From: Nanobdellota archaeon
GTDB lineage: Archaea > Nanobdellota > Nanobdellia > Woesearchaeales > JAHJEM01
Length of the DNA: 47,288 bases
Assembly (NCBI GenBank): GCA_018825425.1
Contig: JAHJEM010000070.1
Coordinates: forward strand, 1-47,288
Direction: 5' to 3'
Part shown: piece after piece, positions 4,682 through 41,450 of the stretch
Layout: each line of letters opens with the position of its first letter
Numbering within the stretch: position 1 is the stretch's first letter
Translations under genes and position numbers: made by a program
The notes under the pieces: model-generated
The model's input: the letters and a program-made list of their open reading frames with translations, nothing else
Database searches by the model: none
What the model was told of the DNA's origin: nothing

Positions 4682-4828
4682 GGGGACGTAGTATAACCTG
4701 GCTAGAATAGTTGGCTCCAGTTTGCTGGAGCGCTGAGCCAAACTCTTGTTTGGCAATGAAGAGAAAAACGGCATGTGCTTTAAGCAGGAAGATACCAACG
4801 GATTGGGGTTCGAATCCCCACGTCCCCA
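4682..4828 (+). tRNA. tRNA-Trp (anticodon CCA) with a 73-nt intron at the canonical 37/38 position; CCA not encoded
   Basis: Acceptor GGGGACG/CGTCCCC with A73. T-arm TGGGG-TTCGAAT-CCCCA. Anticodon stem GTTGG (4710-4714)/CCAAC (4795-4799). Loop C-U-CCA-G|intron|A. Near-canonical bulge-helix-bulge at both splice sites. The D-stem is imperfect (G10:U25, U11:A24, A12/A23 mismatch, U13:G22). Followed by T7. Confidence 0.75.
4721..4793 (+). ncRNA. tRNA-Trp intron carrying a box C/D-like guide for the anticodon loop
   Basis: CTGGAGC (4725-4731) is perfectly complementary to exon GCTCCAG (4714-4720). CUGA at 4733-4736 puts C34 (4717) opposite the 5th nt upstream. Hairpin 4737-4754 is followed by AUGAAGA (4756-4762), a C'-like box. 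Confidence 0.5.
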
Positions 4829-4954: not shown

Positions 4955-5815
4955 ATGATAGGAATAATTCTGGTTGTAATCGCTGCGATATCTGCGGCAA
5001 TTGAACATGTTCTTCAGAAACTGGTTATAACTAGAGGTAAAAGTCTGGCATACACATTTATTTGGCAAGTGTTATCGGCAATTCTATTCTTTATATTATT
5101 TCTATTTAACATTGATTTTCCAAAAGGAGTGTTGCCATGGATAATTGTTGGTGTTTCTTCCTTGTTTTGGATTGCGGGTTCTTTTTCAGGATTTAAGTCA
5201 TATGAATATTTGGATTTGTCAATTAAGGGACCTTTGTCAAAATTGAAAATCATATTTGTGCTGATTCTTAGTGTTCTAATTTTCAAGGAGAGCCTGTCTG
5301 CTGAGAAATTAATTGGTACAGGACTTGTTGTAATTGGAGCAATTCTTATTACATATAATCGGCAATTGAAACTATCTAGTTTCAAGAATAAAGGAGTGAT
5401 CTATGCGGTTTTATCTTCTTTTCTTATTGCTATGGCATTTCTAATTGATAAGTATGCTCTCAATTTTTTTGAAGTCGAACTATATATTCTGCTTGTTTTT
5501 CTGCTTCCTGCGATATATATTGCGCCATTCGCATTTAGGAAGAGAAAAGACGTTGAACAACTCATTAAAACAAGTTTTTGGAAGATTGCAATCACAATGG
5601 TTTTTGGATCTTTGGCATATTATCTGACACTATATGCATTTAAAATGATTGAGGCGAGTGTAGCCATACCCATTTTTGAGTTGAATACTATGTTCGCTGT
5701 TGTTGGTGGAATTATATGTCTAAAAGAAAGAACTGATATTAAGAAAAAAGTAATCTCGACAATTCTGATTGTATTAGGAGTTGTGTTAGTGTCGGGATTA
5801 TATGTTGTTTTCTAG
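4955..5815 (+). CDS. EamA/DMT-family transporter
   Basis: About 10 hydrophobic helices arranged in two halves, typical of EamA-type permeases. GAGGA SD upstream. Confidence 0.7.
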   Translation: MIGIILVVIAAISAAIEHVLQKLVITRGKSLAYTFIWQVLSAILFFILFLFNIDFPKGVLPWIIVGVSSLFWIAGSFSGFKSYEYLDLSIKGPLSKLKIIFVLILSVLIFKESLSAEKLIGTGLVVIGAILITYNRQLKLSSFKNKGVIYAVLSSFLIAMAFLIDKYALNFFEVELYILLVFLLPAIYIAPFAFRKRKDVEQLIKTSFWKIAITMVFGSLAYYLTLYAFKMIEASVAIPIFELNTMFAVVGGIICLKERTDIKKKVISTILIVLGVVLVSGLYVVF

Positions 5816-5821
5816 GAGAGT

Positions 5822-7771
5822 CTATCTCTTCTTCCCCAACCTCATCTCAAGTGTCCGTATCTGTTCTCGGATCTCAATGGCCCTTTCAAATTCGAGCTTC
5901 TCTGCTGCTTCATGCATCTTGGCATCGAGTTCAATTATAACGTTTGGAATCTCTTTTTTAGGGATGTGTTTTGTGTCTTTAATCTCCACTTCTTTCTCTT
6001 TTATTGGTTTGATTATTGTTTTTGGGGTAATCTTATGCTTCTTATTGTATTCCATCTGTATCTGTCGTCGTCTTTTGGTCTCTTTAAGGGCCAATTTGAT
6101 AGAATCAGTCATCTTATCAGCATACAATACCACTTTTGAATCCACGTTTCTAGCTGCACGTCCAATAATCTGTATCAAACTCTTTGTGTCCCGCAAAAAA
6201 CCTTCCTTATCCGCATCTAGAATTCCAATGAAACTCACTTCAGGGATATCCAATCCTTCTCGAAGCAGGTTGATACCCACTAGTACATCGAATTTTCCAA
6301 GCCTGAGCTCTCTTATTATCTCTGTTCGTTCCAGTGTATGGATTTCAGAATGAAGATATCTGGTCTTGATTCCTTCCTCTGCCAAGTATTCGCTCATTTC
6401 CTCAGCCAGTTTTTTTGTGAGTGTTGTTACGAGAGCTCTATTTCCGCTCTTGATGGTAGCCTCAATCTCTTTTTTTAAGTCTTCAATCTGTCCTGTGATG
6501 GGTCTGACCTCAACTACAGGATCAATCAAGCCTGTGGGTCGTATTATCTGTTCGACAATCTGTATGGAAGCTTCGCGTTCATATGGTCCGGGTGTTGCAG
6601 AAACAAATACTACTGATCTCATGTATTTTTCAAATTCTTTGAATTTGAGTGGACGATTATCATAAGCGCAGGAGAGGCGGAATCCATAATCAACAAGATT
6701 CCTTTTTCGGCTGCGATCTCCTTTGTACATACCGTGAAATTGAGGTATGGTCTGATGACTCTCATCAATTATCATAAGGAAATCATTAGGAAAATAATCC
6801 AGAAGACAGTATGGTTTTGATCCTTTTTTTCTGTTGTCAAAATGTCTTGAATAATTCTCAATGCCCTTACAATATCCTGTTTCCTCGATCATTTCTATAT
6901 CATAATTAGTGCGTTGTTTTAGACGGTGTGCTTCAATCATCTCAAGCTTAGGCAGTTCTTCTTTTAATTCCTTTCTTAATCCTTGCAATGCCTTAAGTTT
7001 TGCTCCTTCAGGAATAACGAAGTGGCGTGCGGGATAGACATAGAAATATTTCATCTCTTCTTTGATGGCTCCTGTTATCTTATCTACTTCAACAATCCTT
7101 TCAACAACATCTCCAAACATTTCAAATCTGATTATATCATTGAAATATCCTGGGACGATGTCAATAGTGTCACCTTTGGCTCGAAAGCGTCCAGGCATGA
7201 GTTCAGTCTGGTTTCTCTCAAATTGGATGTTGATTAGCTTGTGAAGCAAGTCATTTCTTGTAATTTTTTGCCCTTTTTTTATTTCAAAACCCAAGTTTTT
7301 GAAGTGCTCAGGGTTTCCTAGTCCATAAATGCAAGAGACTGATGCAACAACAATGACATCTCTAAAGCCAATTAGAGATGCTGTGGTCGAGAGTCTCATC
7401 TGTTCAATCTTCTGGTTTATTGCAGAATCTTTCTCTATATATTGGTCTTTTGATGGGATGTAGGATTCTGGTTGATAATAATCATAGTAAGAGACGAAGT
7501 ATTCAACATGATTATCTGGAAACAATTCCTTGAACTCATTGTATAGCTGTGCTGCAAGAGTCTTGTTATGTGCAATCACTAGCGTTGGTGTCTGTGCTTG
7601 GGCAATCACGTTTGCCATGGTAAATGTCTTTCCAGATCCAGTCACGCCGAGAAGAGTTTGCGCTGCATATTTCTTTTTAAGGCCACTGACTAGCTTGCGA
7701 ATCGCTTCAGGCTGCGAACCTTTTGGTTTCATACTTTTAGACAGTTCGAATCCTATCATTTTATTTGTCAT
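5822..7771 (-). CDS. uvrB: Excinuclease ABC subunit B
   Basis: Walker A 'GVTGSGKTFTMANVI', helicase motifs, C-terminal UVR domain 'EKLEFERAIEIREQI'. 4-nt overlap with uvrC. Confidence 0.95.
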   Translation of the reverse strand: MTNKMIGFELSKSMKPKGSQPEAIRKLVSGLKKKYAAQTLLGVTGSGKTFTMANVIAQAQTPTLVIAHNKTLAAQLYNEFKELFPDNHVEYFVSYYDYYQPESYIPSKDQYIEKDSAINQKIEQMRLSTTASLIGFRDVIVVASVSCIYGLGNPEHFKNLGFEIKKGQKITRNDLLHKLINIQFERNQTELMPGRFRAKGDTIDIVPGYFNDIIRFEMFGDVVERIVEVDKITGAIKEEMKYFYVYPARHFVIPEGAKLKALQGLRKELKEELPKLEMIEAHRLKQRTNYDIEMIEETGYCKGIENYSRHFDNRKKGSKPYCLLDYFPNDFLMIIDESHQTIPQFHGMYKGDRSRKRNLVDYGFRLSCAYDNRPLKFKEFEKYMRSVVFVSATPGPYEREASIQIVEQIIRPTGLIDPVVEVRPITGQIEDLKKEIEATIKSGNRALVTTLTKKLAEEMSEYLAEEGIKTRYLHSEIHTLERTEIIRELRLGKFDVLVGINLLREGLDIPEVSFIGILDADKEGFLRDTKSLIQIIGRAARNVDSKVVLYADKMTDSIKLALKETKRRRQIQMEYNKKHKITPKTIIKPIKEKEVEIKDTKHIPKKEIPNVIIELDAKMHEAAEKLEFERAIEIREQIRTLEMRLGKKR

Positions 7772-12136: not shown

Positions 12137-12258
12137 ATTTAAAGGAAATTTTTCAAGGGTTTATATTGTTTACCCCAATATGTCCAGTGGTATTTTGGAT
12201 ATGTTCCTATGAGTTATAGACGATATCTTTTTAAACATAAGAATGGTGGTTATTATGT

Positions 12259-16430: not shown

Positions 16431-16470
16431 CACAATAATGGTTGCCAAAAGGAATCTTTATATTTACTCT

Positions 16471-16509
16471 ATAAATCTTTAAAGAACTATAAATTATAGA
16501 AAGATTTAT
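16471..16509. promoter_or_regulatory. Nested inverted repeats in a divergent promoter region
   Basis: ATAAATCTTT (16471-16480) and AAAGATTTAT (16500-16509) flank the palindrome CTATAA-A-TTATAG (16487-16499). A third AATCTTTA copy is at 16453-16460. TATA-like runs on both sides. Confidence 0.4.
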
Positions 16510-16528
16510 ATATGGGTTTGTCGTCTAA

Positions 16529-19977: not shown

Positions 19978-20063
19978 ATAAATGCTTAAGACAGATGAAA
20001 TATATAAACTTTATTGAATATTAAACAAAAATCTTTATAAATGCATCAAACTGAAGTAGAAAC

Positions 20064-23266: not shown

Positions 23267-23857
23267 TCATTTAAGTTTAAGAATGGTACCATCCGGACCT
23301 GGATTTATGATTAGTGTCTTTCCGATTTTATCTTGTTTCTTGCTTCCCTCATGGATATGACCGCAGATGTTAATCGCCGGTTGATTCTTTTCAATAAATT
23401 TCCTTATTGTTTTACAACCAACATGGGCTTGATTGACAAGGTCAACGTTGGTACGATGTGGTGGGCCGTGTGTCATGAAAATGAACTTCTTGCCCTTAAG
23501 AACCCTTGCATATTTGTCTCCTTTCTTTTCTAATTCAGGGTCTGTTTCGGTGAATCCCCCTCCACCCCAACCAAAAACATAGAGATCACGGAACTTGAAG
23601 ACCTTTCTATGGATTACCTTAATGGAATTTAATCCTTTTGCTGCAGCTCTCATACTCTCATCCGTTTCATGATTACCGTGGATGATTAAGGTATACTTAT
23701 TGAGATTGTTTAGTTTTTCGAGAAATTCTCGCAGATTGGCATCAAAGACTGTAAGATCACCTGCGCAGAGGATTATGTCTGCGTCCTCTGATTTTTTAAT
23801 AATACTGTCGAATTTTCTTCTTTCTCCGTGTGTGTCAACAAATGCCAAAATGTTCAT
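23267..23857 (-). CDS. Metallophosphoesterase (YfcE/MJ0936-like)
   Basis: 'FVDTHG', 'CAGDL', 'GNHE', 'GHIH' motifs. Confidence 0.8.
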   Translation of the reverse strand: MNILAFVDTHGERRKFDSIIKKSEDADIILCAGDLTVFDANLREFLEKLNNLNKYTLIIHGNHETDESMRAAAKGLNSIKVIHRKVFKFRDLYVFGWGGGGFTETDPELEKKGDKYARVLKGKKFIFMTHGPPHRTNVDLVNQAHVGCKTIRKFIEKNQPAINICGHIHEGSKKQDKIGKTLIINPGPDGTILKLK

Positions 23858-23878
23858 GATGATTGGAGGAAGTGGGGA

Positions 23879-23891
23879 TTTATAAATTTAA
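23879..23891. promoter_or_regulatory. Near-symmetric TATA element, possibly bidirectional
   Basis: TTTATAAATTTAA is centred about 26 nt upstream of the minus-strand ATG at 23857, implying a leaderless transcript. It is also the only strong TATA upstream of the hairpin array on the plus strand. Confidence 0.35.
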
Positions 23892-23962
23892 TGTCAAGAA
23901 AAATTTTGGTGCTCTCCAATCTCCGTAACTGAAACTTTATCCTAATCTATCTGTTCGTCATA

Positions 23963-24304
23963 CTCCCCCCTAAAGATTTGTCGAATTCATTCGACAAAGG
24001 GTGGAGCATTACGGACTCTTATTAACTGAGATTTTAAAGAATCTCAGAACTTTGAAAGTTTTCAACTTTCAAAGTAATGGGACAAAGTTTCTGGAAATTG
24101 CGAATCTTTGATTTGCAAGTGTTGCGAACTCGTTCGCAACAACTATTAAATCGAGCAGACGAGCCTACAATGAGAATTCCTCGAAGAGGAATTATAGGGA
24201 CTATCGAAATCTAAAAGATTTCGAAAGTGTCTCCCACCTCACAGAGATTTTTAAAGAAAATCTTTGGGACTCTTGAATACTAGATTCAAGAGAAAAGGTT
24301 GGAG
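23963..24304 (+). ncRNA. Candidate novel structured RNA: array of nine distinct hairpins framed by two paralogous closing helices
   Basis: Hairpins at 23977-23998, 24026-24047, 24049-24075, 24098-24118, 24121-24140, 24175-24193, 24204-24224, 24242-24266 and 24270-24292. Closing helices at 23963-23970/23999-24006 and 24231-24238/24297-24304. G:T pairs fit only a plus-strand RNA. No ORF of 60 aa or more. Confidence 0.4.
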
Positions 24305-24328
24305 CTTTGGATCGATTTAAGAGTAACC

Positions 24329-24336
24329 TTTATTAA
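24329..24336 (+). promoter_or_regulatory. TATA box candidate for ahcY
   Basis: TTTATTAA lies about 50 nt upstream of the ATG at 24385. GGTGAT SD at 24375-24380. Confidence 0.3.
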
Positions 24337-24384
24337 TGAACTCAATCTTTTCGAATGGATTTAATAATTTAGAAGGTGATATTA

Positions 24385-25641
24385 ATGGATAAGGGAGATA
24401 ATTACGAAGTAAAAGACATAAAACTTGCTGAGCAAGGGAAGAGGAATGTTGAATGGGCGGAAATGGAAATGGGAGCCCTTCTCAAAATTCGTGCGCAGTT
24501 TGAAAAGGACAAGCCTCTTAAGGGAATGAGGGTTGGAATGGCACTTCACGTGACTAAGGAAACTGCAGCTCTTGTAAGGACTATTATTGCAGGTGGAGCA
24601 GAGGTTGCAATCACAGGATGTAACCCATTAAGCACACAAGATGATGTTGCAGCATTCCTGGCAAAAGAAGGAGTTCTTGTTTGGGCATATAAGGGTGAAA
24701 GCAACGAAGATTATTACAGATATATTGATAATGTAATTAAATTCAAGCCACACCTAACAATTGACGATGGTATGGATCTAGTATCAGAGATTCATAAGAA
24801 GTATCCTGAGATGATTCCTGACATTATTGGTGGATGCGAGGAGACCACAACAGGAATAATAAGATTGCATGCAATGCAAAAAGACGGTGCACTCAAGTAT
24901 CCTGTAATTGCGGTTAATGATAACAAGACCAAACATCTGCTTGACAATTATTATGGGACTGGTCAAAGCACTCTTGATGGAGTGATCAGAGCAAGTAACA
25001 TCCTGATTGCAGGAAAAAATGTGGTTATTGCAGGTTATGGTAGCTGTGGTAAAGGTGCTGCTCTACGGGCAAAAGGACTTGGCGCAAGTGTAATCGTAAC
25101 TGAAGTCGCTCCATTTCCTGCTCTGCAGGCGAAAATGGACGGACACCAAGTAATGAAGATGAAAGATGCAGTTTCCGTGGGAGACATATTCATAACAATG
25201 ACTGGGAATAAGAATGTAATTACTCCAGAACACTGTAAAGGCATGAAAAACGGTGCAATCATATGTAACAGTGGTCATTTCACAAACGAGATTGATGTTG
25301 ATTCATTGGATAAGCTTCCAAAGCGGGAAATAAGACCCTTATTTGATGAATACATCGTTGGTGGCAAGAAGATATACCTTGCTGGCGAAGGCAGGCTTGT
25401 GAATCTTGCCTGTGCAGAAGGCCATCCAAGCCTTGTAATGAGCACAAGCTTCTGTGGCCAGGCACTGAGCCTGAAATATCTGGTTGAAATGAAAGGGAAG
25501 TTGAAGCCTGAAGTTGTGATGTTGCCTCCTGAATTGGATGATTATATTGCAACTATCCAGAATGAATCACTTGGTGTTGAATTGGATGAATTGACACCTG
25601 AACAGGTCAAGTATATGAATAGCTGGGAAGAAGGGACATAA
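24385..25641 (+). CDS. ahcY: Adenosylhomocysteinase
   Basis: 'VKDIKLAEQGKRNVEWAEMEMG', 'GCNPLSTQDDVAA' and the NAD-binding 'IAGYGSCGKGAALRAKGLGA'. The track ORF starts at GTG 24376; the ATG at 24385 has the SD. Confidence 0.95.
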   Translation: MDKGDNYEVKDIKLAEQGKRNVEWAEMEMGALLKIRAQFEKDKPLKGMRVGMALHVTKETAALVRTIIAGGAEVAITGCNPLSTQDDVAAFLAKEGVLVWAYKGESNEDYYRYIDNVIKFKPHLTIDDGMDLVSEIHKKYPEMIPDIIGGCEETTTGIIRLHAMQKDGALKYPVIAVNDNKTKHLLDNYYGTGQSTLDGVIRASNILIAGKNVVIAGYGSCGKGAALRAKGLGASVIVTEVAPFPALQAKMDGHQVMKMKDAVSVGDIFITMTGNKNVITPEHCKGMKNGAIICNSGHFTNEIDVDSLDKLPKREIRPLFDEYIVGGKKIYLAGEGRLVNLACAEGHPSLVMSTSFCGQALSLKYLVEMKGKLKPEVVMLPPELDDYIATIQNESLGVELDELTPEQVKYMNSWEEGT

Positions 25642-26988: not shown

Positions 26989-27098
26989 CGGAAATAAGTG
27001 AACACAAGTACACCAATTACCAGAAGATATATTATTCTTTCAAGGATTCGCGTATTTAAAGTTAGTGTTACTTGACTCATAAAAATACCCCCAAAAAT

Positions 27099-28980: not shown

Positions 28981-29157
28981 TGTATCCCTCCATTTTTCCT
29001 TTATTTTTCGATTTAAACCAAATATATATTCCGGAAGTCTTTCAGATAAATATAAATACTGAGAGAGCTATCACTGAATGGTTCAGGATTCTTCTGAAAC
29101 TGAGTACAATATTTCCGGATTAACTCAGCAAAATTTATAAATAGTTACCCCTTAGCG

Positions 29158-31443: not shown

Positions 31444-31490
31444 AAGACTCAAAAATAGTTCTATATACTTGTTATATATAAATGCCAAGC

Positions 31491-31512
31491 ATATACCTTA
31501 TATACCTTATAT
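31491..31512. repeat. 9-bp tandem repeat ATATACCTT x2 plus a partial third copy
   Basis: Copies at 31491-31499 and 31500-31508, partial copy from 31509. Lies upstream of a TATA-like ATTATATAAA (31539-31548). Confidence 0.7.
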
Positions 31513-31571
31513 TTTATAGTGGTATTTTTCTATCGAAAATTATATAAACATACCACTGTCGAGTCTGCAGT

Positions 31572-31778
31572 ATGGCTAAAGACGAAGATATGGACACTGA
31601 TGAGGTCTACAACGGAGAAGGAAGGGAAGAGATGATGAGGAATGACGAGATTAGCCCTGAAGAAGAAGCATTTATGAAGGGTTATGACGAAGACATGGAT
31701 GAAGAGGAAGCCGACTCCGGTGACTTGGCATACGAAGAGTCCTTTGCTGAGAAAACAAAGAAACCAAAGCGTAAGTAA
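31572..31778 (+). CDS. Small highly acidic protein (68 aa)
   Basis: The TATA-like element sits about 28 nt upstream of the ATG (leaderless-type spacing). A hairpin plus T5 follows the stop. Confidence 0.5.
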   Translation: MAKDEDMDTDEVYNGEGREEMMRNDEISPEEEAFMKGYDEDMDEEEADSGDLAYEESFAEKTKKPKRK

Positions 31779-31782
31779 TTAA

Positions 31783-31805
31783 ATATTACGACGTAATATC
31801 TTTTT
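31783..31805 (+). terminator. Hairpin plus T5 terminator
   Basis: ATATTACG-A-CGTAATAT followed by C and TTTTT (31801-31805). Confidence 0.5.
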
Positions 31806-31916
31806 CTATAGGTGTACCCGTCTTGTTCTGATTTGACAATATCTGTCTCAATCACACAAAAGCTTAAATAATCATATATCCAAAAAGAGAATTAATTCAT
31901 ATGTGAGGTGTGAAAT

Positions 31917-32144
31917 ATGGGAAATGTTGGATTTGACAATGCAAGAGTAAATACTGCTACCGTTGTGCAGAGTGGAGATTTTAAGGACTACATTTTGATG
32001 CAGATATCCAAGCATGGAAAACAAGATATGATGGTGCTTGTTGACAAGGAGTCCATTCAATCCTTTATGGACCAACATGGAGATGGGGACAATGCCCTGG
32101 AGAATTGGGTCAAGAGCAAGAAGCTCACTTTAGTATTTAGTTAA
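31917..32144 (+). CDS. Hypothetical small protein (75 aa)
   Basis: GAGGTG SD 7 nt upstream of the ATG. Confidence 0.5.
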   Translation: MGNVGFDNARVNTATVVQSGDFKDYILMQISKHGKQDMMVLVDKESIQSFMDQHGDGDNALENWVKSKKLTLVFS

Positions 32145-32154
32145 TCTTTTTTTT

Positions 32155-32865: not shown

Positions 32866-32959
32866 TCTGTAGATGCAAATTCAACAACTATTTATATATT
32901 ATTGTTGTAGAGTGTTCTACAACGAGGGTTGATATATTGTCTTGATTCTTCTATAGAAA

Positions 32960-33187
32960 ATGAGTCAAGAAATGGAAGAAGCAATCGATTCAATAATCGC
33001 CGAATGTGCAAAACGACTAGAATATGATTTTCTGAACAGAGACATTTTTCTTAATGGAGATCGTGCAGAGGATAGATTGGCATTACTTAGGCGCGTGCAA
33101 GCATATCGAAGCGAACAAGTGCATACAGATACATCGCCTTGGTATTCGTCGGGAGAAACAATTCCTCTCTGGTATGAACACGGTTAA
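32960..33187 (+). CDS. Hypothetical small protein (75 aa)
   Basis: ORF only; hairpins at 33192-33210 and 33213-33239 follow the stop. Confidence 0.4.
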   Translation: MSQEMEEAIDSIIAECAKRLEYDFLNRDIFLNGDRAEDRLALLRRVQAYRSEQVHTDTSPWYSSGETIPLWYEHG

Positions 33188-33303
33188 CTGTACTTTGTCA
33201 GAAACAAAGTTTCGCTCATATCGAGGTTCGACTTGAGCGTAATTCTGATATGATTTGAGAGTGGTGATAAACCTTTTTATGTATAGTTGTAAAAAAGGCT
33301 AGT

Positions 33304-35776: not shown

Positions 35777-36037
35777 ATGTGGATTGAACCATTAGCAGCA
35801 AAACTCATTACATTGATTCTTATTGGGATATTTGTAATTATCATGTTTACAATATTCAAGAAGGTGCTAAAACTCATCCTCAACGCCATAATTGGCCTTG
35901 TAGCTTTGTTCGCGTTCAATGCAGTCTTTGGAACAGATGTTGCCGTCAACTTTTGGAGCGTGGTGATAACTGCACTTGGGGGTATTGTTGGATTCATTGT
36001 TGTTATTGTGCTGCATTTCTTAGGTGTTGCTTTCTAA
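35777..36037 (+). CDS. Small membrane protein, BofA-like
   Basis: Two or three TM helices. 'ILNAIIGLVALFAFNAV...ALGGIVGF' resembles the BofA family pattern. Confidence 0.45.
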   Translation: MWIEPLAAKLITLILIGIFVIIMFTIFKKVLKLILNAIIGLVALFAFNAVFGTDVAVNFWSVVITALGGIVGFIVVIVLHFLGVAF

Positions 36038-36138
36038 TTCGCGGGCACTGGTCATTTTCTAATAGGATAATTCAATGCGCAGATGTTCTGTAAGTGGGGT
36101 TTTACCTACTAAATAGCACTGGACATGTGCGCGCCGGG

Positions 36139-36146
36139 TTTATATA
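36139..36146 (+). promoter_or_regulatory. Canonical TATA box (TTTATATA) for the small-ORF cassette
   Basis: Exact archaeal consensus, preceded by GC-rich GCGCGCCGGG. Direct repeats GCACTGG(T/A)CAT at 36045-36055 and 36116-36126 lie upstream. Confidence 0.45.
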
Positions 36147-36243
36147 CTCTTCAATCCCAATAACAATTATCCCCCTGCGAGGCAATGAGAATCCAAGTCC
36201 TGGATTTTCAGCCTCAACATGTGGGAAACCACGAGGTGAAAAA

Positions 36244-36360
36244 ATGACGACAGAATATATCGAAAGGATTTTTCAGGAAAAAATGATGGAAATGACTAGA
36301 AGGACAATTGCAGAATTTGACAAGCAATTTACAAAACCTGTTGCAGACAGGCTATTTTGA
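36244..36360 (+). CDS. Small ORF A (38 aa)
   Basis: GAGGTGA SD (36233-36239) ends 4 nt before the ATG. Predicted helical peptide MTTEYIERIFQEKMMEMTRRTIAEFDKQFTKPVADRLF. The stop TGA is immediately followed by the SD of ORF B. Confidence 0.4.
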   Translation: MTTEYIERIFQEKMMEMTRRTIAEFDKQFTKPVADRLF

Positions 36361-36369
36361 GGTGATAAT

Positions 36370-36489
36370 ATGATTGCAGTAAATGATACCCATTATGCCC
36401 AGCACATAGCACACACTTTGCAAGAACACGCTTGCATACTTCCTGATGAGGTAGCTGAAATAGTTGAATATATTACGTTCTCTTCGTAA
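36370..36489 (+). CDS. Small ORF B (39 aa)
   Basis: GGTGAT SD (36361-36366) before the ATG at 36370. Peptide MIAVNDTHYAQHIAHTLQEHACILPDEVAEIVEYITFSS. A terminator hairpin follows. Confidence 0.4.
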   Translation: MIAVNDTHYAQHIAHTLQEHACILPDEVAEIVEYITFSS

Positions 36490-36510
36490 ACTGTGTTTTC
36501 TAGCCCCACC

Positions 36511-36541
36511 GCAGCACTTAGGTGCTGCAGCTTTTTCTTTT
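36511..36541 (+). terminator. GC-rich hairpin plus T-rich tail
   Basis: GCAGCAC-TTAG-GTGCTGC followed by AGCTTTTTCTTTT. Confidence 0.55.
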
Positions 36542-36622
36542 AAGTCTGAGAAGTGGTTTTTTTCATTGAATTCATGTATGCAGATGTATACATGTGTATG
36601 CAAGATAAGGGGTGGTTTTTGT

Positions 36623-36724
36623 ATGAGATTCGTGAAATTGGGAGTAATATTAGCAATAACTGCGCTAAAGCGCGGGCAGACCGGCCTTGCGGCCGGAACA
36701 GGGCTGATCCAAAGGATCAGTTGA
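36623..36724 (+). CDS. Possible small hydrophobic peptide (33 aa); doubtful
   Basis: GGGGTG lies 9 nt upstream of the ATG. Peptide MRFVKLGVILAITALKRGQTGLAAGTGLIQRIS. The 3' two-thirds coincide with the GC-rich hairpins, which may be the real feature. Confidence 0.2.
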   Translation: MRFVKLGVILAITALKRGQTGLAAGTGLIQRIS

Positions 36725-36778
36725 TTCCGAGCGATAGCTCGGCCCTGTCCACGCCTTTGGCGTGGCCATTTTGATTTT
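36660..36778 (+). ncRNA. GC-rich five-helix element (candidate small structured RNA or complex terminator)
   Basis: Helices at 36660-36675, 36681-36696 and 36749-36765. A further helix 36698-36703/36743-36748 encloses hairpins 36704-36720 and 36727-36742. All pairs are Watson-Crick except one T:G. Tail is CCATTTTGATTTT. Confidence 0.35.
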
Positions 36779-37275
36779 CAATGCTTTTCCAGAAATTCGC
36801 TTATGTAAAGTGCAGTATCCGGACATAGTTCATTATGTTCTGCCATTTCCTGAAGTTCAACTCGAGATATCCATTTTCCCTGTTCACATTCCTGCTCATT
36901 GAGTTTAACTTCCACATTACTCTGGGCCATAAAGATCTTACCCATATATCTGATAATATCAGATTCATACTCAAAATCAAATAAGAACTTCACCTCTGCT
37001 TCAATACCACACTCCTCCATAAGCTCACGCTTTGCAGCATGTTCAAAGGATTCTCCTGCAATAACTGCTCCACCCGCACCAACTACCCATTTCAAAGGGC
37101 AGACCTTCTTGGTGCTCTTTCGTTGGTTGACATAGAATTTGCCAGCGTCATTTATGAGTACAACAACAACCATTTTATGCAACAAATTCTCTTCAACTAC
37201 TGCTTTTCGGGGAACAGTTCTAAGAACATTCATATCCTTGTCAATCTCTTCATTATATTCAATCATATTGCACAA
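36778..37275 (-). CDS. NUDIX hydrolase
   Basis: Nudix box 'GGAVIAGESFEHAAKRELMEECGI'. Confidence 0.85.
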   Translation of the reverse strand: MCNMIEYNEEIDKDMNVLRTVPRKAVVEENLLHKMVVVVLINDAGKFYVNQRKSTKKVCPLKWVVGAGGAVIAGESFEHAAKRELMEECGIEAEVKFLFDFEYESDIIRYMGKIFMAQSNVEVKLNEQECEQGKWISRVELQEMAEHNELCPDTALYISEFLEKH

Positions 37276-37351: not shown

Positions 37352-37918
37352 ATGGAGATAATCAATCAAGACGAGTTCAATCAGAAAAGGTTGGCATACA
37401 TCAAGAAGATGAAGGATTGGATATTCATATATCCAACAGACACAATCTATGGAATAGGATGTGATGCAACCAATGATGAACTTGTAAAGAAGATTAGGGA
37501 CTTGAAAAAAAGTACGCAACCATTCACTGTTATTGCCCCTTCCAAAAAATGGATACAGGACAATTGTGAGACAAGTGATCTGGTACAGGAATGGATGGAG
37601 AATCTCCCAGGTCCGTACACACTTATTATCAAACTTAAGAACTTGGATTGTGTTGCTCCAAGTATTCTGAATGGAAAGACTACTCTTGGCATACGTATTC
37701 CAGAAAACTGGTTTGCAAAGGTAGTTGAAGAGCTAGAAGTGCCTGTAGTCACTACATCTGCTAACCTATCTGGAGAAAACTTTATGACCAAAATTGAGGA
37801 TCTTGATCCGGATCTTAAAGCAGGAGCAGATATTATTATCTATGAGGGTGAAATAATGGGAAAACCATCTACTTTGGTCATTATTGACCATGAAGATGTA
37901 CATATTAAAGAAAGATGA
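37352..37918 (+). CDS. tsaC: L-threonylcarbamoyladenylate synthase (YrdC/TsaC-type, single domain)
   Basis: 'IFIYPTDTIYGIGCDATN', 'VVTTSANLSGE'; 188 aa with no Sua5 C-terminal domain. Confidence 0.8.
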   Translation: MEIINQDEFNQKRLAYIKKMKDWIFIYPTDTIYGIGCDATNDELVKKIRDLKKSTQPFTVIAPSKKWIQDNCETSDLVQEWMENLPGPYTLIIKLKNLDCVAPSILNGKTTLGIRIPENWFAKVVEELEVPVVTTSANLSGENFMTKIEDLDPDLKAGADIIIYEGEIMGKPSTLVIIDHEDVHIKER

Positions 37919-38550
37919 CCCTTGAAAAAAAAGTTAAATCTGGAAAACTAAAAATTCTTTCAGCAGGAGATTTGCATGGAGATATTGCTCTAGCAAGAAA
38001 GCTTGCAGACAGAGCTGCAAAAGAAAAAGTAGATCTAGTCATTCTGTGCGGTGACATAACTAATTTTGACAAAAGTTCAGACAATATGATCGGACCATTT
38101 CTGGCCAAGAACAAAAAGGTAATTTTTATCCCCGGTAACCATGACAGCTTTGCCACAGCAGACTTTCTTGCTGAAGTGTATGGAATCAAGAACATTCATG
38201 GATACAGTGTCAAGTACAAGGATGTAGGTATCTTTGGATGTGGTGGCGCAAATATTGGTCCTGTTACAGAACTATCTGAAAAGGAAATCTATGATATGTT
38301 GAAACAAGGTTTTTCTAGAATCAAATACCTTGATAAAAGAATCATGGTGAGTCATGTACCTCCATCCGGCTCAAAAATGGAAAAGTTGTGTCCAGGAGCA
38401 GGCTCTAGCGGAGTCAAGGATGCAATGGAGAAGTTCAAGCCAGATTTATTGCTCTGTAGTCATATCCATGCAGCAGAGGGTATAGAAGAGAAGATTGGCA
38501 AGACAAAAGTCATTAATGTTGGTCAAGTAGGAAAGATAATTGAGATTTAG
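37915..38550 (+). CDS. Metallophosphoesterase
   Basis: 'SAGDLHGD', 'LCGDITN', 'GNHD', 'SHIH'. 4-nt overlap with tsaC. Confidence 0.8.
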   Translation: MTLEKKVKSGKLKILSAGDLHGDIALARKLADRAAKEKVDLVILCGDITNFDKSSDNMIGPFLAKNKKVIFIPGNHDSFATADFLAEVYGIKNIHGYSVKYKDVGIFGCGGANIGPVTELSEKEIYDMLKQGFSRIKYLDKRIMVSHVPPSGSKMEKLCPGAGSSGVKDAMEKFKPDLLLCSHIHAAEGIEEKIGKTKVINVGQVGKIIEI

Positions 38551-41374: not shown

Positions 41375-41450
41375 TGTGGGATTTTGTATTTATAAATGAT
41401 TTATATAGTTTCTCTAAAGTTATTTAAACTCGACCTCATTATCTATATAA

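What the first reader, a model, noticed from the sequence alone, without database searches (positions are those of the whole stretch)
23858..24384. Array of nine different near-perfect hairpins in a 527-nt ORF-free divergent spacer: candidate undescribed structured RNA
This spacer lies between the metallophosphoesterase start (23857, minus) and the ahcY ATG (24385). It is several-fold longer than most spacers in this window, and no frame has an ORF of 60 aa or more. It contains nine consecutive hairpins with unrelated stem sequences. HP1 23977-23998 (10 bp), HP2 24026-24047 (8 bp), HP3 24049-24075 (12 bp), HP4 24098-24118 (9 bp), HP5 24121-24140 (9 bp), HP6 24175-24193 (8 bp), HP7 24204-24224 (9 bp), HP8 24242-24266 (10 bp), HP9 24270-24292 (9 bp). 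Loops are 2-6 nt and linkers 1-34 nt. The only non-Watson-Crick pairs inside stems are G:T (24102:24114 in HP4, 24244:24264 in HP8). These are G:U wobbles on a plus-strand transcript but A:C mismatches on the minus strand, which favours RNA-level structure read left to right. HP4 and HP5 share TTGCGAA(T)C arms and could swap partners. The likely ahcY TATA (24329-24336) lies downstream of the array, so the array is probably not the ahcY leader. I do not recognise any known RNA family here.
Basis: partly seen in the sequence, partly recalled or inferred. Interest (0 to 1): 0.8.

Follow-up and report, generated by a model that had tools for sequence, protein, structure and literature searches.

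The report
Orphan nine-hairpin array, likely RNA
A tiny-genome DPANN archaeon from deep Swedish groundwater carries, between two diverging housekeeping genes, a unique 350-400-base stretch that folds into nine short perfect hairpins; it is statistically real and matches no known RNA family or mobile element, but its function cannot be proven because no related genome carries it.

Summary
Seven of the 16 perfect hairpins (stem >=8 bp) in the 47-kb window lie within 316 nt (23977-24292). Two more hairpins there each carry a G:T pair. Shuffles give 0.14 such hairpins (max 2). 714 kb of related DPANN DNA never has more than 4 per 350 nt. The spacer folds far better than shuffles (z -9.2 on +, -6.6 on -) and is the outlier among all 13 long spacers.

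No Rfam family matches. The window holds no transposase, reverse transcriptase, Cas or Nop/Tas gene. No second copy exists anywhere I searched. TIGR stem-loop units are absent.

The plus strand is weakly favoured: 4 in-stem G:U against 0 A:C, and an 18 kcal/mol lower fold energy. The stems are not all unrelated. The array has two similar halves (HP1,2,3 resemble HP6,8,9), a central related pair (HP4/HP5), and closing helices CUCCNNCC/GGNUGGAG that share a C.U mismatch.

Relatives are distant (AhcY <=77%, MPE <=58% identity). They lack both the gene adjacency and the long spacer, so covariation cannot be tested.

My best reading is a lineage-specific, plus-strand structured RNA. A DNA-level palindrome cluster, an ahcY leader and a neutral relic are not excluded. 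Metatranscriptomes have been published from the same kind of habitat (Fennoscandian Shield deep groundwater); if they sample this organism they could settle it.

The parts
23267..23857 (-). Left flanking gene: metallophosphoesterase (MPE), 196 aa. It is not part of the element.
   Evidence: Pfam Metallophos/Metallophos_2, E 1e-15. Homologues are all DPANN-type, at most 58% identical.
23879..23886 (.). TTTATAAA TATA box of the leaderless MPE gene. The sequence is its own reverse complement, so in principle it could also fire rightwards, with a plus-strand start near 23910.
   Evidence: It lies at the same distance before the ATG as the TATA boxes of most genes in the window, which sit about 25-32 nt upstream. 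The rightward use is inference.
23936..23943 (+). Weak TATA-like TTTATCCT preceded by an A-rich stretch. It predicts a plus-strand start near 23965, which is the first base of helix alpha.
   Evidence: Read from the sequence and compared with the promoters in the window. Inference only.
23963..24006 (+). Module alpha: CUCCCCCC (23963-23970) pairs with GGGUGGAG (23999-24006) and encloses HP1. The helix has 7 pairs and one C.U mismatch.
   Evidence: Pair probability 0.8-1.0. The pattern is found twice in the window and 0 times in shuffles, but the pattern was chosen after seeing the data.
23977..23998 (+). HP1, 10 bp perfect, 2-nt centre (a tetraloop UUCA when read as RNA).
24026..24047 (+). HP2, 8 bp perfect, loop UUAAAG. 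Resembles HP8.
   Evidence: The resemblance is direct repeat D8 and the alignment.
24049..24075 (+). HP3, 12 bp perfect, loop UUC.
24098..24118 (+). HP4, 9 bp with one G:U (24102:24114), loop UUU. Its arm TTGCGAATC is related to the HP5 arm.
24120..24141 (+). HP5, 10 bp perfect, 2-nt centre. Its arm TTGCGAAC is related to the HP4 arm, so HP4 and HP5 can swap partners.
24175..24193 (+). HP6, 8 bp perfect, loop GAA.
24204..24224 (+). HP7, 9 bp perfect, loop AAA. It is extended by ACU/AGU and AGG/UCU pairs on either side.
24231..24304 (+). Module omega: CUCCCACCU (24231-24239) pairs with AGGUUGGAG (24296-24304) and encloses HP8 and HP9. The C.U mismatch is at the same position as in alpha, and the neighbouring pair is A-U where alpha has C-G.
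   Evidence: It is the minimum-energy structure when 24175-24306 is folded alone. In the long fold it costs only 2.3 kcal/mol more than the minimum, with pair probability 0.1-0.2.
24242..24266 (+). HP8, 10 bp with G:U at 24244:24264, plus a further U.G at the top of the stem. Loop AAA or UAAAG.
24270..24292 (+). HP9, 9 bp perfect, loop ACUAG. Resembles HP1: 6 of 9 pairs are identical and 3 differ on both sides.
   Evidence: comparison by eye.
24013..24270 (+). Four GGAC/GGGAC motifs in single-stranded linkers, at 24013-16, 24079-83, 24197-201 and 24266-70. There are none on the other strand.
   Evidence: 4 observed against 0.9 expected from the window's own frequency; GTCC occurs 0 times against 1.2 expected. 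The motif was chosen after seeing the data.
24329..24336 (+). TTTATTAA, the probable ahcY TATA box. It lies downstream of the array.
   Evidence: ahcY has a Shine-Dalgarno sequence (GGTGAT, 24375-24380), so it needs a leader of about 25 nt.
24385..25641 (+). Right flanking gene: S-adenosylhomocysteine hydrolase (ahcY), 418 aa. It is not part of the element unless the array is its long leader.
   Evidence: Pfam AdoHcyase, E 1.5e-67.

Best explanation
The array is a lineage-specific, highly structured RNA of about 340-400 nt. It is transcribed left to right from inside the MPE/ahcY divergent spacer, roughly 23910/23965 to 24305-24325.

It folds into nine independent AU-rich hairpins. Because the stems differ, each can form locally as it is transcribed without mispairing. 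The hairpins are grouped by short closing helices into modules: alpha[HP1], [HP2 HP3], the central pair HP4/HP5, HP6, [HP7] and omega[HP8 HP9].

In this reading the hairpins are rigid spacers. The working parts are the single-stranded linkers between them. These carry recurring G-rich motifs (GGGAC x3 plus GGAC, and AAAGGNUGGAGC x2) and C-rich motifs (CUCCNNCC x2). One of the C-rich motifs contains CACCUC, which I recognise as the core of the usual 16S rRNA anti-Shine-Dalgarno sequence; the 16S rRNA of this organism was not available to check. I infer a scaffold or decoy RNA that binds several copies of a protein, or pairs with G-rich or SD-like RNA segments.

What is shown: the hairpins, their statistical excess, the modular similarity of the two halves, the absence of any known family, and a modest plus-strand bias. 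What is inferred: that the region is transcribed at all, the transcript ends, and the scaffold/decoy function.
For: - Hairpin excess: 7 perfect hairpins against 0.14 in shuffles, P about 1e-11 against the DPANN background.
- Fold z of -9.2 on the plus strand, the strongest of all spacers and stronger than the tRNA spacer.
- The plus strand is 18 kcal/mol more stable than the minus strand, with the larger z.
- All four in-stem non-canonical pairs are G:U on plus, which would be A:C on minus; there are no other mismatches.
- GGAC occurs four times in linkers on plus and never on minus.
- The nine hairpins have pair probabilities of 0.8-0.99. Helix alpha is at 0.8-1.0 and helix omega is near-optimal.
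- A covariance model of HP6-HP9 matches HP1-HP3 on the same strand (22 bits, E about 1e-3 window-wide). It maps HP6->HP1, HP8->HP2 and HP9->HP3.
- Alpha and omega share a C.U mismatch and differ by a C-G to A-U double change.
- Both flanking genes have their own promoters right next to them, so about 400 nt in the middle is not needed for either.
- The window is a housekeeping chromosome region with no mobile-element genes.
- No part of the array is repeated elsewhere.
Against: - There is no evidence of transcription.
- No homologue exists, so there is no phylogenetic covariation.
- Any two perfect hairpins show 'compensatory' differences when aligned, so the paralogue comparison is not an independent test.
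- Primary-sequence similarity between the halves is not significant (score 24 against 19.4 +/- 2.7; 12 of 150 shuffles reach it).
- The covariance-model self-hit may partly reflect generic hairpin content.
- The strand bias rests on four pairs (one-sided p about 0.06).
- The stems are more perfect, and the centres shorter (2-3 nt in seven of nine), than in typical old structured RNAs. This looks as much like DNA palindromes.
- As single-stranded DNA the region folds with z -10.
- No clear oligo-T terminator follows the array on the plus strand; the best T-run, T5 at 23903->23899, is on the minus strand.
- The linker motifs were picked after seeing the data.
Confidence: 0.4

Rival explanations
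1. A DNA-level palindrome cluster. Divergent transcription of MPE and ahcY puts negative supercoiling into the spacer. Nine perfect AT-rich inverted repeats with 2-6-bp centres could extrude as cruciforms, or fold as hairpins whenever the DNA is single-stranded. They would then act as a topological sink or insulator, or as entry or recognition sites for a DNA enzyme.
For: - Seven of nine stems are perfect, and seven of nine centres are only 2-3 nt, which is the typical shape of palindromes.
- Both strands fold far better than shuffles: z -6.6 to -9.2 as RNA and -10 as ssDNA.
- The array lies exactly between two diverging promoters.
- TCGA is enriched eightfold, 8 against 1.1 expected.
- C-GAA-G type triloops, which I recall as unusually stable in DNA, occur in HP6 and in the hairpin cluster of the nearest relative.
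Against: - All four imperfections are G:T. These are tolerated on one strand only and would be A:C on the other arm of a cruciform.
- The motif content of the linkers is strand-asymmetric.
- Long-range helices such as alpha and omega make sense only for a single strand.
- Stems of 8-12 bp are short for stable cruciform extrusion (general knowledge).
- None of the other divergent spacers of >=100 nt in the window (12137-12258, 26989-27098, 28981-29157, 32866-33303) stands out in folding, z between +1.4 and -2.0.
- No origin, recombinase or HUH-enzyme gene is nearby.
- GC skew shows no switch at this point.
Confidence: 0.2
2. A long structured 5' leader of ahcY. A distal promoter near 23880-23940 would give a 420-480-nt leader whose hairpins, and whose alternative pairings (the HP4/HP5 partner swap, or the CACCUC segment pairing with the ahcY SD GGUGAU), tune ahcY and methyltransferase expression or mRNA stability.
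For: - The array is on the same strand as ahcY and directly upstream of it. No strong terminator lies between the array and ahcY.
- The plus strand is favoured.
- HP4 and HP5 can swap partners.
- A 16-nt, 81% complementary stretch links 24220-24235 to codons 3-8 of ahcY (I3).
- From general knowledge, bacteria regulate ahcY with an SAH riboswitch, so RNA control of this gene has precedent.
Against: - The three closest ahcY genes have only 68-170 nt upstream and no array.
- There is no SAH or SAM riboswitch match.
- A good TATA (24329-24336) and an SD lie downstream of the array, so ahcY does not need the array.
- Perfect hairpins without conserved junctions are unlike ligand-binding aptamers.
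- The I3 complementarity is at chance level for this region.
Confidence: 0.15
3. A neutral relic. The spacer would be the scar of a rearrangement or of decayed foldback or palindromic mobile DNA (for example a non-autonomous IS200/IS605-type or REP-like element), multiplied by local duplication and kept perfect by template-switch 'palindrome correction'. It would have no present function.
For: - MPE and ahcY are not neighbours in any relative, so the spacer sits at a synteny breakpoint.
- The element is unique to this genome as far as can be seen.
- There are signs of internal duplication: HP4/HP5 and the two halves.
- Perfection of the stems is expected if they are young.
- There is a very weak resemblance of HP2-HP3 to the Rfam IS605-orfB-II RNA: 18 bits against a gathering score of 88, E 1.5.
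Against: - No transposase, TnpB, RAYT or integrase gene is in the 47 kb.
- No second copy of any hairpin exists in the window, in about 1.5 Mb of fetched loci, or in the phage and plasmid collections.
- DPANN genomes are compact, and the other spacers here show no such content.
- The one-sided G:U pattern and the nested closing helices are not expected from neutral decay.
Confidence: 0.15
4. A guide-RNA array of the TIGR-Tas stem-loop type, or another RNA-guided system whose units are variable palindromic stems.
For: TIGR stem-loop arrays are described as tandem units closed by 'variable but consistently palindromic sequences'. They lack sequence-conserved repeats and escape CRISPR finders (PMC12045711; bioRxiv 10.64898/2026.09.09.750476). 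They are common in small-genome symbionts such as CPR bacteria.
Against: [quoted passage not shown] Here the loops are 2-6 nt.
- A scan using the published rule finds no unit in the spacer, and only one in the whole window, elsewhere.
- No Nop-domain protein appears among 44 of the 45 main ORFs of at least 100 aa scanned with Pfam; the overlapping 183-aa ORF 5802-6353 was not scanned. The adjacent genes are MPE and ahcY.
- The two nearest unknown ORFs have no relative in the PDB.
Confidence: 0.02

Closest known systems
Multi-hairpin protein-sponge sRNAs (CsrB/RsmZ type; from general knowledge)
   Same: A several-hundred-nt non-coding RNA built from many short hairpins. A short G-rich motif recurs in exposed positions. 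There are signs of growth by internal duplication, and such RNAs evolve fast and are restricted to a lineage.
   Different: In CsrB the GGA motifs sit mostly in hairpin loops and bind CsrA, which archaea lack. Here the motifs (GGGAC, GGNUGGAGC) are in linkers and the loops are only 2-6 nt. No partner protein is known. Rfam Csr/Rsm models do not match.
REP/BIME clusters of bacteria (repetitive extragenic palindromes)
   Same: Clusters of short, nearly perfect palindromic hairpins packed head to tail in an intergenic spacer.
   Different: REPs are one sequence family repeated tens to hundreds of times per genome, usually after the 3' ends of genes, and are linked to a RAYT transposase. Here each stem is different, none recurs in the 47 kb or elsewhere, the spacer is divergent (5' ends of both genes), and no RAYT is present.
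TIGR-Tas stem-loop arrays (PMC12045711; bioRxiv 10.64898/2026.09.09.750476)
   Same: A tandem array of units defined by variable palindromic stems rather than conserved repeats. Such arrays are invisible to CRISPR finders and are found in reduced-genome symbionts.
   Different: There are no box C / box D flanked dual spacers, the loops are about ten times too small, and there is no Nop-domain gene (and the Pfam calls).
Large 'ornate' orphan ncRNAs found by structure or composition screens (OLE, ROOL, GOLLD; the Hgc RNAs of AT-rich archaea; from general knowledge)
   Same: A long intergenic RNA candidate recognised only by exceptional secondary structure and not tied to a neighbouring gene.
   Different: Those families are defined by conservation and covariation across many genomes and have irregular, junction-rich folds. 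This one is a single instance made of plain perfect hairpins, and it is not GC-enriched (35% against 38.7% for the window).
IS200/IS605-family end hairpins and TnpB omega-RNA scaffolds (Rfam IS605-orfB-I/II)
   Same: Several adjacent stem-loops in non-coding DNA. There is a faint Rfam resemblance at HP2-HP3.
   Different: The score is far below threshold (18 against 88 bits, E 1.5). There is no tnpA or tnpB, no other copies, and no recognisable element ends.

Membership tests
Any Rfam 15 family | Covariance-model score at or above the family's gathering threshold | tested here: not met
   Only a tRNA at 4682-4828 passes in the whole window. In 23800-24450 the best hit is Spd-sr37 at 25.2 bits against a gathering score of 45, E 0.05. 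All other hits have E >= 1.
SAH / SAM riboswitch (cis-regulator of ahcY) | Match to the aptamer model upstream of ahcY | tested here: not met
   No SAH or SAM family appears among the hits with E <= 10 under permissive filters.
TIGR-Tas stem-loop array | Units made of two [box D + 8-12-nt spacer + box C] intervals <=15 nt apart, closed by a stem of >=5 bp | tested here: not met
   The rule was re-implemented from the TIGRFinder methods. It finds 0 units in the spacer on either strand.
TIGR-Tas stem-loop array | Adjacent gene for a Nop-domain (Tas) protein | tested here: not met
   The neighbours are MPE and AhcY. No Nop hit appears among 44 of the 45 main ORFs of at least 100 aa scanned in the window; the overlapping 183-aa ORF 5802-6353 was not scanned. 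The nearest unknown ORFs have no PDB relative. A very divergent Tas elsewhere in the genome cannot be excluded.
REP/BIME | The same palindrome sequence repeated at many loci in the genome | tested here: not met
   No hairpin recurs in the other 46.8 kb of the window; the best match is a 15-nt AT-rich stretch with E 0.06. The rest of the genome is not available.
REP/BIME | Associated RAYT (IS200/IS605-like Y1 transposase) in the genome | not testable with these tools
   None is in the window (Pfam).
CRISPR array | A conserved direct repeat of 24-37 nt alternating with unique spacers | tested here: not met
   The direct-repeat families in the spacer have two copies each at 66-87% identity. The best internal direct similarity is not above shuffles. 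There are no cas genes.
Archaeal box C/D or H/ACA guide sRNA | C (RUGAUGA) and D (CUGA) boxes, or a pseudouridylation pocket with an ACA box and a K-turn | tested here: not met
   No box C occurs inside the array, the stems have no internal loops, and the snoRNA models score at E >= 1.
Archaeal replication origin | Repeated ORB/mini-ORB boxes flanking an AT-rich unwinding element, usually next to orc1/cdc6 | tested here: not met
   There is no repeated box, no orc1/cdc6 in the window (Pfam calls), no skew switch at 24 kb, and the spacer GC of 0.35 is only slightly below the window's 0.387.
Structured ncRNA gene (generic) | Conservation with compensatory base changes across species | not testable with these tools
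   The only other copy is 100% identical. The nearest relatives lack the spacer. Nothing turned up in 839 kb of fetched loci, mostly DPANN, with a covariance model.
Structured ncRNA gene (generic) | Folding energy significantly below that of dinucleotide shuffles, with a strand preference | tested here: met
   z -9.2 on + against -6.6 on -; -168.6 against -150.6 kcal/mol. In-stem G:U to A:C ratio is 4:0.

The most novel reading that the evidence does not exclude
The array is the first seen member of a new kind of archaeal RNA: a 'hairpin-array' scaffold. Many short, deliberately dissimilar perfect hairpins hold recurring single-stranded G-rich and C-rich motifs at fixed spacing, so that the RNA can titrate a protein or the SD/anti-SD pairing partners in a genome-reduced DPANN symbiont. 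Looser hairpin clusters may be diverged members of the same functional class. Candidates are the one in its nearest relative (L017:7155-7324) and the GC-rich multi-hairpin element at 36655-36775 in the same window.
Probability: 0.2. Interest if true: 0.75.

Novelty: new variant of a known kind. Interest (0 to 1): 0.5.

Why it matters
DPANN archaea have about 1-Mb genomes with very little non-coding DNA, and almost nothing is known about their regulatory RNAs. A 400-nt stretch devoted to the most extreme hairpin cluster found in over 1.5 Mb of comparison sequence is unlikely to be idle.

If it is a transcript, it would be a new orphan class of archaeal structured RNA and a handle on post-transcriptional control in uncultured symbionts. 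If it acts as DNA, it would be a rare natural example of a designed-looking cruciform array between divergent promoters.

Either way it gives a concrete target that can be checked against deep-groundwater metatranscriptomes from the Fennoscandian Shield, if they sample this organism.

Tried and rejected
- **Rfam** at gathering and at permissive thresholds: nothing.
- **tRNA/tmRNA scan:** nothing.
- **Synteny route.** The MPE protein searched in genome contigs gave 13 loci, at best 49% identical, with no arrays. An exact-protein look-up found only an identical Logan contig from SRR2544004. The contexts of the closest MPE homologues (58%, 56% and 52% identical) and ahcY homologues (77%, 77% and 75%) all have short spacers and different neighbours.
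- **Metagenome scan** with an MPE family alignment: 80 DPANN loci, 714 kb, and no cluster of more than 4 perfect hairpins. The two best clusters are an AT-rich terminator region and a transposase coding region.
- **Hairpin cluster in the nearest relative (L017:7155-7324).** It has a real fold signal (z -5.5). Its sequence similarity to the window array is at chance level (score 23 against 20 +/- 2.6), so I do not claim homology.
- **Module pattern CTCCNNCC...AAAGGNTGGAGC** searched in viral contigs: 73 hits, all chance, none with the hairpin content.
- **blastn** of the array against phages and plasmids: nothing meaningful.
- **Covariance model** of HP6-HP9 against 839 kb of fetched loci (mostly DPANN): best E 0.32.
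- **TIGR-Tas stem-loop array:** read up and tested by rule; rejected.
- **Origin of replication, CRISPR, C/D and H/ACA guides, riboswitch, REP/BIME, IS605 ends:** each fails a defining feature (see the membership test).
- **Small ORF 24077-24214 (45 aa):** no TATA or SD at the right distance, and it runs through four palindromes; treated as chance.
- **Internal direct-repeat similarity:** not significant by sequence alone. I therefore present the paralogy as suggestive only.
- **Literature searches** for hairpin arrays in DPANN or archaea: nothing relevant.
Full report
**1. What is there**

The 527-nt spacer 23858-24384 lies between a metallophosphoesterase gene on the minus strand (23267-23857) and ahcY on the plus strand (24385-25641). 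The only correction is that HP5 is one pair longer (24120-24141, 10 bp).

A mechanical scan of the whole 47,288-nt window for perfect stems >=8 bp with 2-8-nt loops gives 16 hairpins. Seven of them fall within 23977-24292. HP4 and HP8 are missed only because each contains a G:T pair.

**2. Is it more than chance?**

Yes, by a wide margin.
- Dinucleotide shuffles of the spacer contain on average 0.14 such hairpins (maximum 2 in 2000 shuffles), against 7 observed.
- The background density is 0.19/kb in the rest of the window, 0.15/kb in 640 kb of viral contigs and 0.28/kb in 714 kb of DPANN metagenome loci. No 350-nt stretch in those loci holds more than 4. The Poisson probability is about 8e-12.
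- The RNA fold of the spacer has z -9.2 on plus and -6.6 on minus. The other twelve spacers >=100 nt range from +1.4 to -4.9, and the spacer with the window's tRNA reaches only -3.7.
- Every hairpin has a mean pair probability of 0.8-0.99 in the partition function.

**3. Organism and context**

The window has 38.7% GC. Its genes are chromosomal housekeeping genes: UvrABC, RtcB, Sua5, Tyw1, YggS, CorA, thymidylate synthase, endonuclease III.

The best protein relatives are Nanoarchaeota/Woesearchaeota-type DPANN archaea, and they are distant: MPE <=58% and AhcY <=77% identical. An identical copy occurs in a Logan contig assembled from SRR2544004. That run is an Aspo Hard Rock Laboratory deep-groundwater biofilm metagenome (PMC5364579).

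The window holds no transposase, TnpB, integrase, reverse transcriptase, cas, Nop-domain or orc1/cdc6 gene. GC skew follows gene orientation and does not switch at 24 kb.

**4. Anatomy**

In-stem irregularities are four G:T pairs (HP2 top, HP4, HP8 twice). There is no A:C and no other mismatch. Seven of nine centres are 2-3 nt.

The stems are not all unrelated.
- HP2 and HP8 share GAGAUUUU-UAAAG (D8).
- HP4 and HP5 share UUGCGAA(U)C and can swap partners.
- HP1 and HP9 share 6 of 9 pairs and the same 3' flank, AAAGGNUGGAGCNUU.

Two 8-9-nt C-rich segments pair with those G-rich flanks: CUCCCCCC at 23963-70 and CUCCCACC(U) at 24231-39. The resulting helices are alpha (around HP1; probability 0.8-1.0) and omega (around HP8+HP9). 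Omega is the minimum-energy fold of 24175-24306 taken alone, and costs 2.3 kcal/mol more than the minimum in the long fold. Both helices have a C.U mismatch at the same position and differ by a C-G to A-U change next to it.

A covariance model built from 24175-24306 matches 23978-24085 on the same strand with 22 bits (E about 1e-3 window-wide). It maps HP6->HP1, HP8->HP2 and HP9->HP3. The array therefore looks like two similar halves around the central HP4/HP5 pair.

Cautions:
- Plain sequence similarity between the halves is not significant.
- The alpha/omega pattern was defined after seeing the data.
- Two perfect hairpins always look 'compensatory' when aligned.

GGAC/GGGAC occurs four times, always in linkers and only on the plus strand (4 against 0.9 expected; its complement 0 against 1.2).

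**5. Strand and transcription signals**

The plus strand is favoured by the 4:0 G:U to A:C count (one-sided p about 0.06), by 18 kcal/mol, and by the larger z.

Most genes in the window carry TTTATAAA/TTTATATA-type boxes about 25-32 nt before the ATG, which implies leaderless mRNAs. MPE fits this pattern (23879-23886). That box is palindromic and could also fire rightwards.

That is downstream of the array.

A weak TATA (23936-43) would place a plus-strand start at about 23965, exactly at helix alpha. A minus-strand unit is also conceivable: TATA-like 24336->24329, with a T5 run at 23903->23899. Sequence alone does not settle this.

**6. Search for relatives**

- The closest MPE and ahcY homologues sit in different neighbourhoods and have 68-170-nt upstream spacers.
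- The nearest relative comes from the GenBank assembly GCA_043825215.1 and a Logan contig of run SRR26275509; that run is listed in a study of Fennoscandian Shield groundwater (PMC11484514). It has a looser cluster of about six hairpins at L017:7155-7324 in a convergent spacer (z -5.5). Its similarity to the window array is at chance level.
- No array of comparable density was found in 714 kb of DPANN loci.
- There was no covariance-model hit in 839 kb of fetched loci, mostly DPANN (best E 0.32).
- There were no copies in the window, the fetched loci, phages or plasmids.
- Pattern hits in viral contigs are chance.

The decisive covariation test is therefore not possible with present data.

**7. 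Known systems considered**

Rfam has nothing.

TIGR-Tas stem-loop arrays were the most tempting analogue, because their units are closed by variable palindromic stems and lack conserved repeats (PMC12045711; bioRxiv 10.64898/2026.09.09.750476). However, their stems enclose about 37 nt holding two box-D/box-C flanked spacers, and they sit next to a Nop-domain gene. The published detection rule finds no unit here, and no Nop protein is encoded nearby.

REP/BIME, CRISPR, C/D and H/ACA guides, riboswitches, IS605 ends and replication origins each fail a defining feature (see the membership table).

**8. Interpretation**

The most economical reading is a lineage-specific plus-strand structured RNA of about 340-400 nt. 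Dissimilar hairpins fold locally and act as rigid spacers. The recurring single-stranded G-rich and C-rich linker motifs are the likely working parts, for protein or RNA binding, which would make it a scaffold or decoy. The existence of the structure signal is shown. Transcription, transcript ends and function are inferred.

I give 0.4 to the RNA-gene reading. The rivals are:
- a DNA-level palindrome or cruciform cluster between divergent promoters (0.2);
- a long ahcY leader (0.15);
- a neutral relic of duplication or mobile DNA at a synteny breakpoint (0.15);
- a guide array (0.02).

**9. Verdict**

The feature is real, extreme and unexplained, and it belongs to no described family. It is also a single, unconserved instance made of very plain hairpins, with no expression data. 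Interest is moderate (0.5). It would rise sharply if a plus-strand transcript or a second, diverged copy were found.

Noticed in passing
window 36655-36775 (within spacer 35998-36777): A second multi-hairpin element, this one GC-rich (about 60% GC in a 38.7% GC window). It has five short stems with loops UAAA, UUGC, AAA, GAUA and UUUG, including a three-way junction, and is followed on the plus strand by the T-runs CCATTTTGATTTTC. The fold z is -3.5 on plus and -4.2 on minus for 36600-36790, and -4.9 on plus and -4.8 on minus for the whole spacer. There is no Rfam hit even at E<=1 and no similar sequence in the fetched loci. It is probably another unannotated ncRNA.
   Followed up: partly
L017:7155-7324 (GCA_043825215.1, JBDRSD010000003.1; identical in Logan SRR26275509_9329): The nearest relative has its own cluster of about six hairpins: a 12-bp stem CAGAAATTTCC.., the 8-bp ATGTGAAC-GAA-GTTCACAT and the 9-bp ATGCAAACC-TTT-GGTTTGCAT. 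It lies in a convergent spacer after a 57-aa zinc-ribbon ORF, with z about -5.5 on both strands. Two of its hairpins look like HP4/HP5 of the window, but overall similarity is at chance level.
   Followed up: partly
window 4682-4828 (+): The Rfam tRNA hit spans 147 nt (39.8 bits), so it is presumably a tRNA gene with an intron. ARAGORN reported no tRNA in the window.
   Followed up: no
window 31444-32154 and 32866-33303: Two further long spacers (711 and 438 nt) contain no ORF >=100 aa and show no folding signal (z about 0 to -2). Their content is unexplained; small genes or decayed genes are possible.
   Followed up: no
window 37915-38550 (+): A second metallophosphoesterase paralogue (211 aa, Pfam Metallophos, E 2e-18) lies 14 kb from the MPE that flanks the array.
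   Followed up: no
window 36245-36488 (+): Read by eye, there are two short back-to-back ORFs (ATGACGACAGAA... and ATGATTGCAGTA...). They are followed by a GC-rich hairpin plus a T-run (CCGCAGCACTTAGGTGCTGCAGCTTTTTCTTTT). This may be a small two-gene unit, such as a toxin-antitoxin-like pair, just upstream of the GC-rich element. The coordinates are not verified.
   Followed up: no
window 16449-16528, 19978-20063, 41375-41450: Several divergent gene pairs share very short spacers (76-86 nt) with two back-to-back TTTATAAA/TTTATATA boxes. This shows how compact divergent promoters normally are in this genome, and it makes the 527-nt MPE/ahcY spacer stand out.
   Followed up: partly
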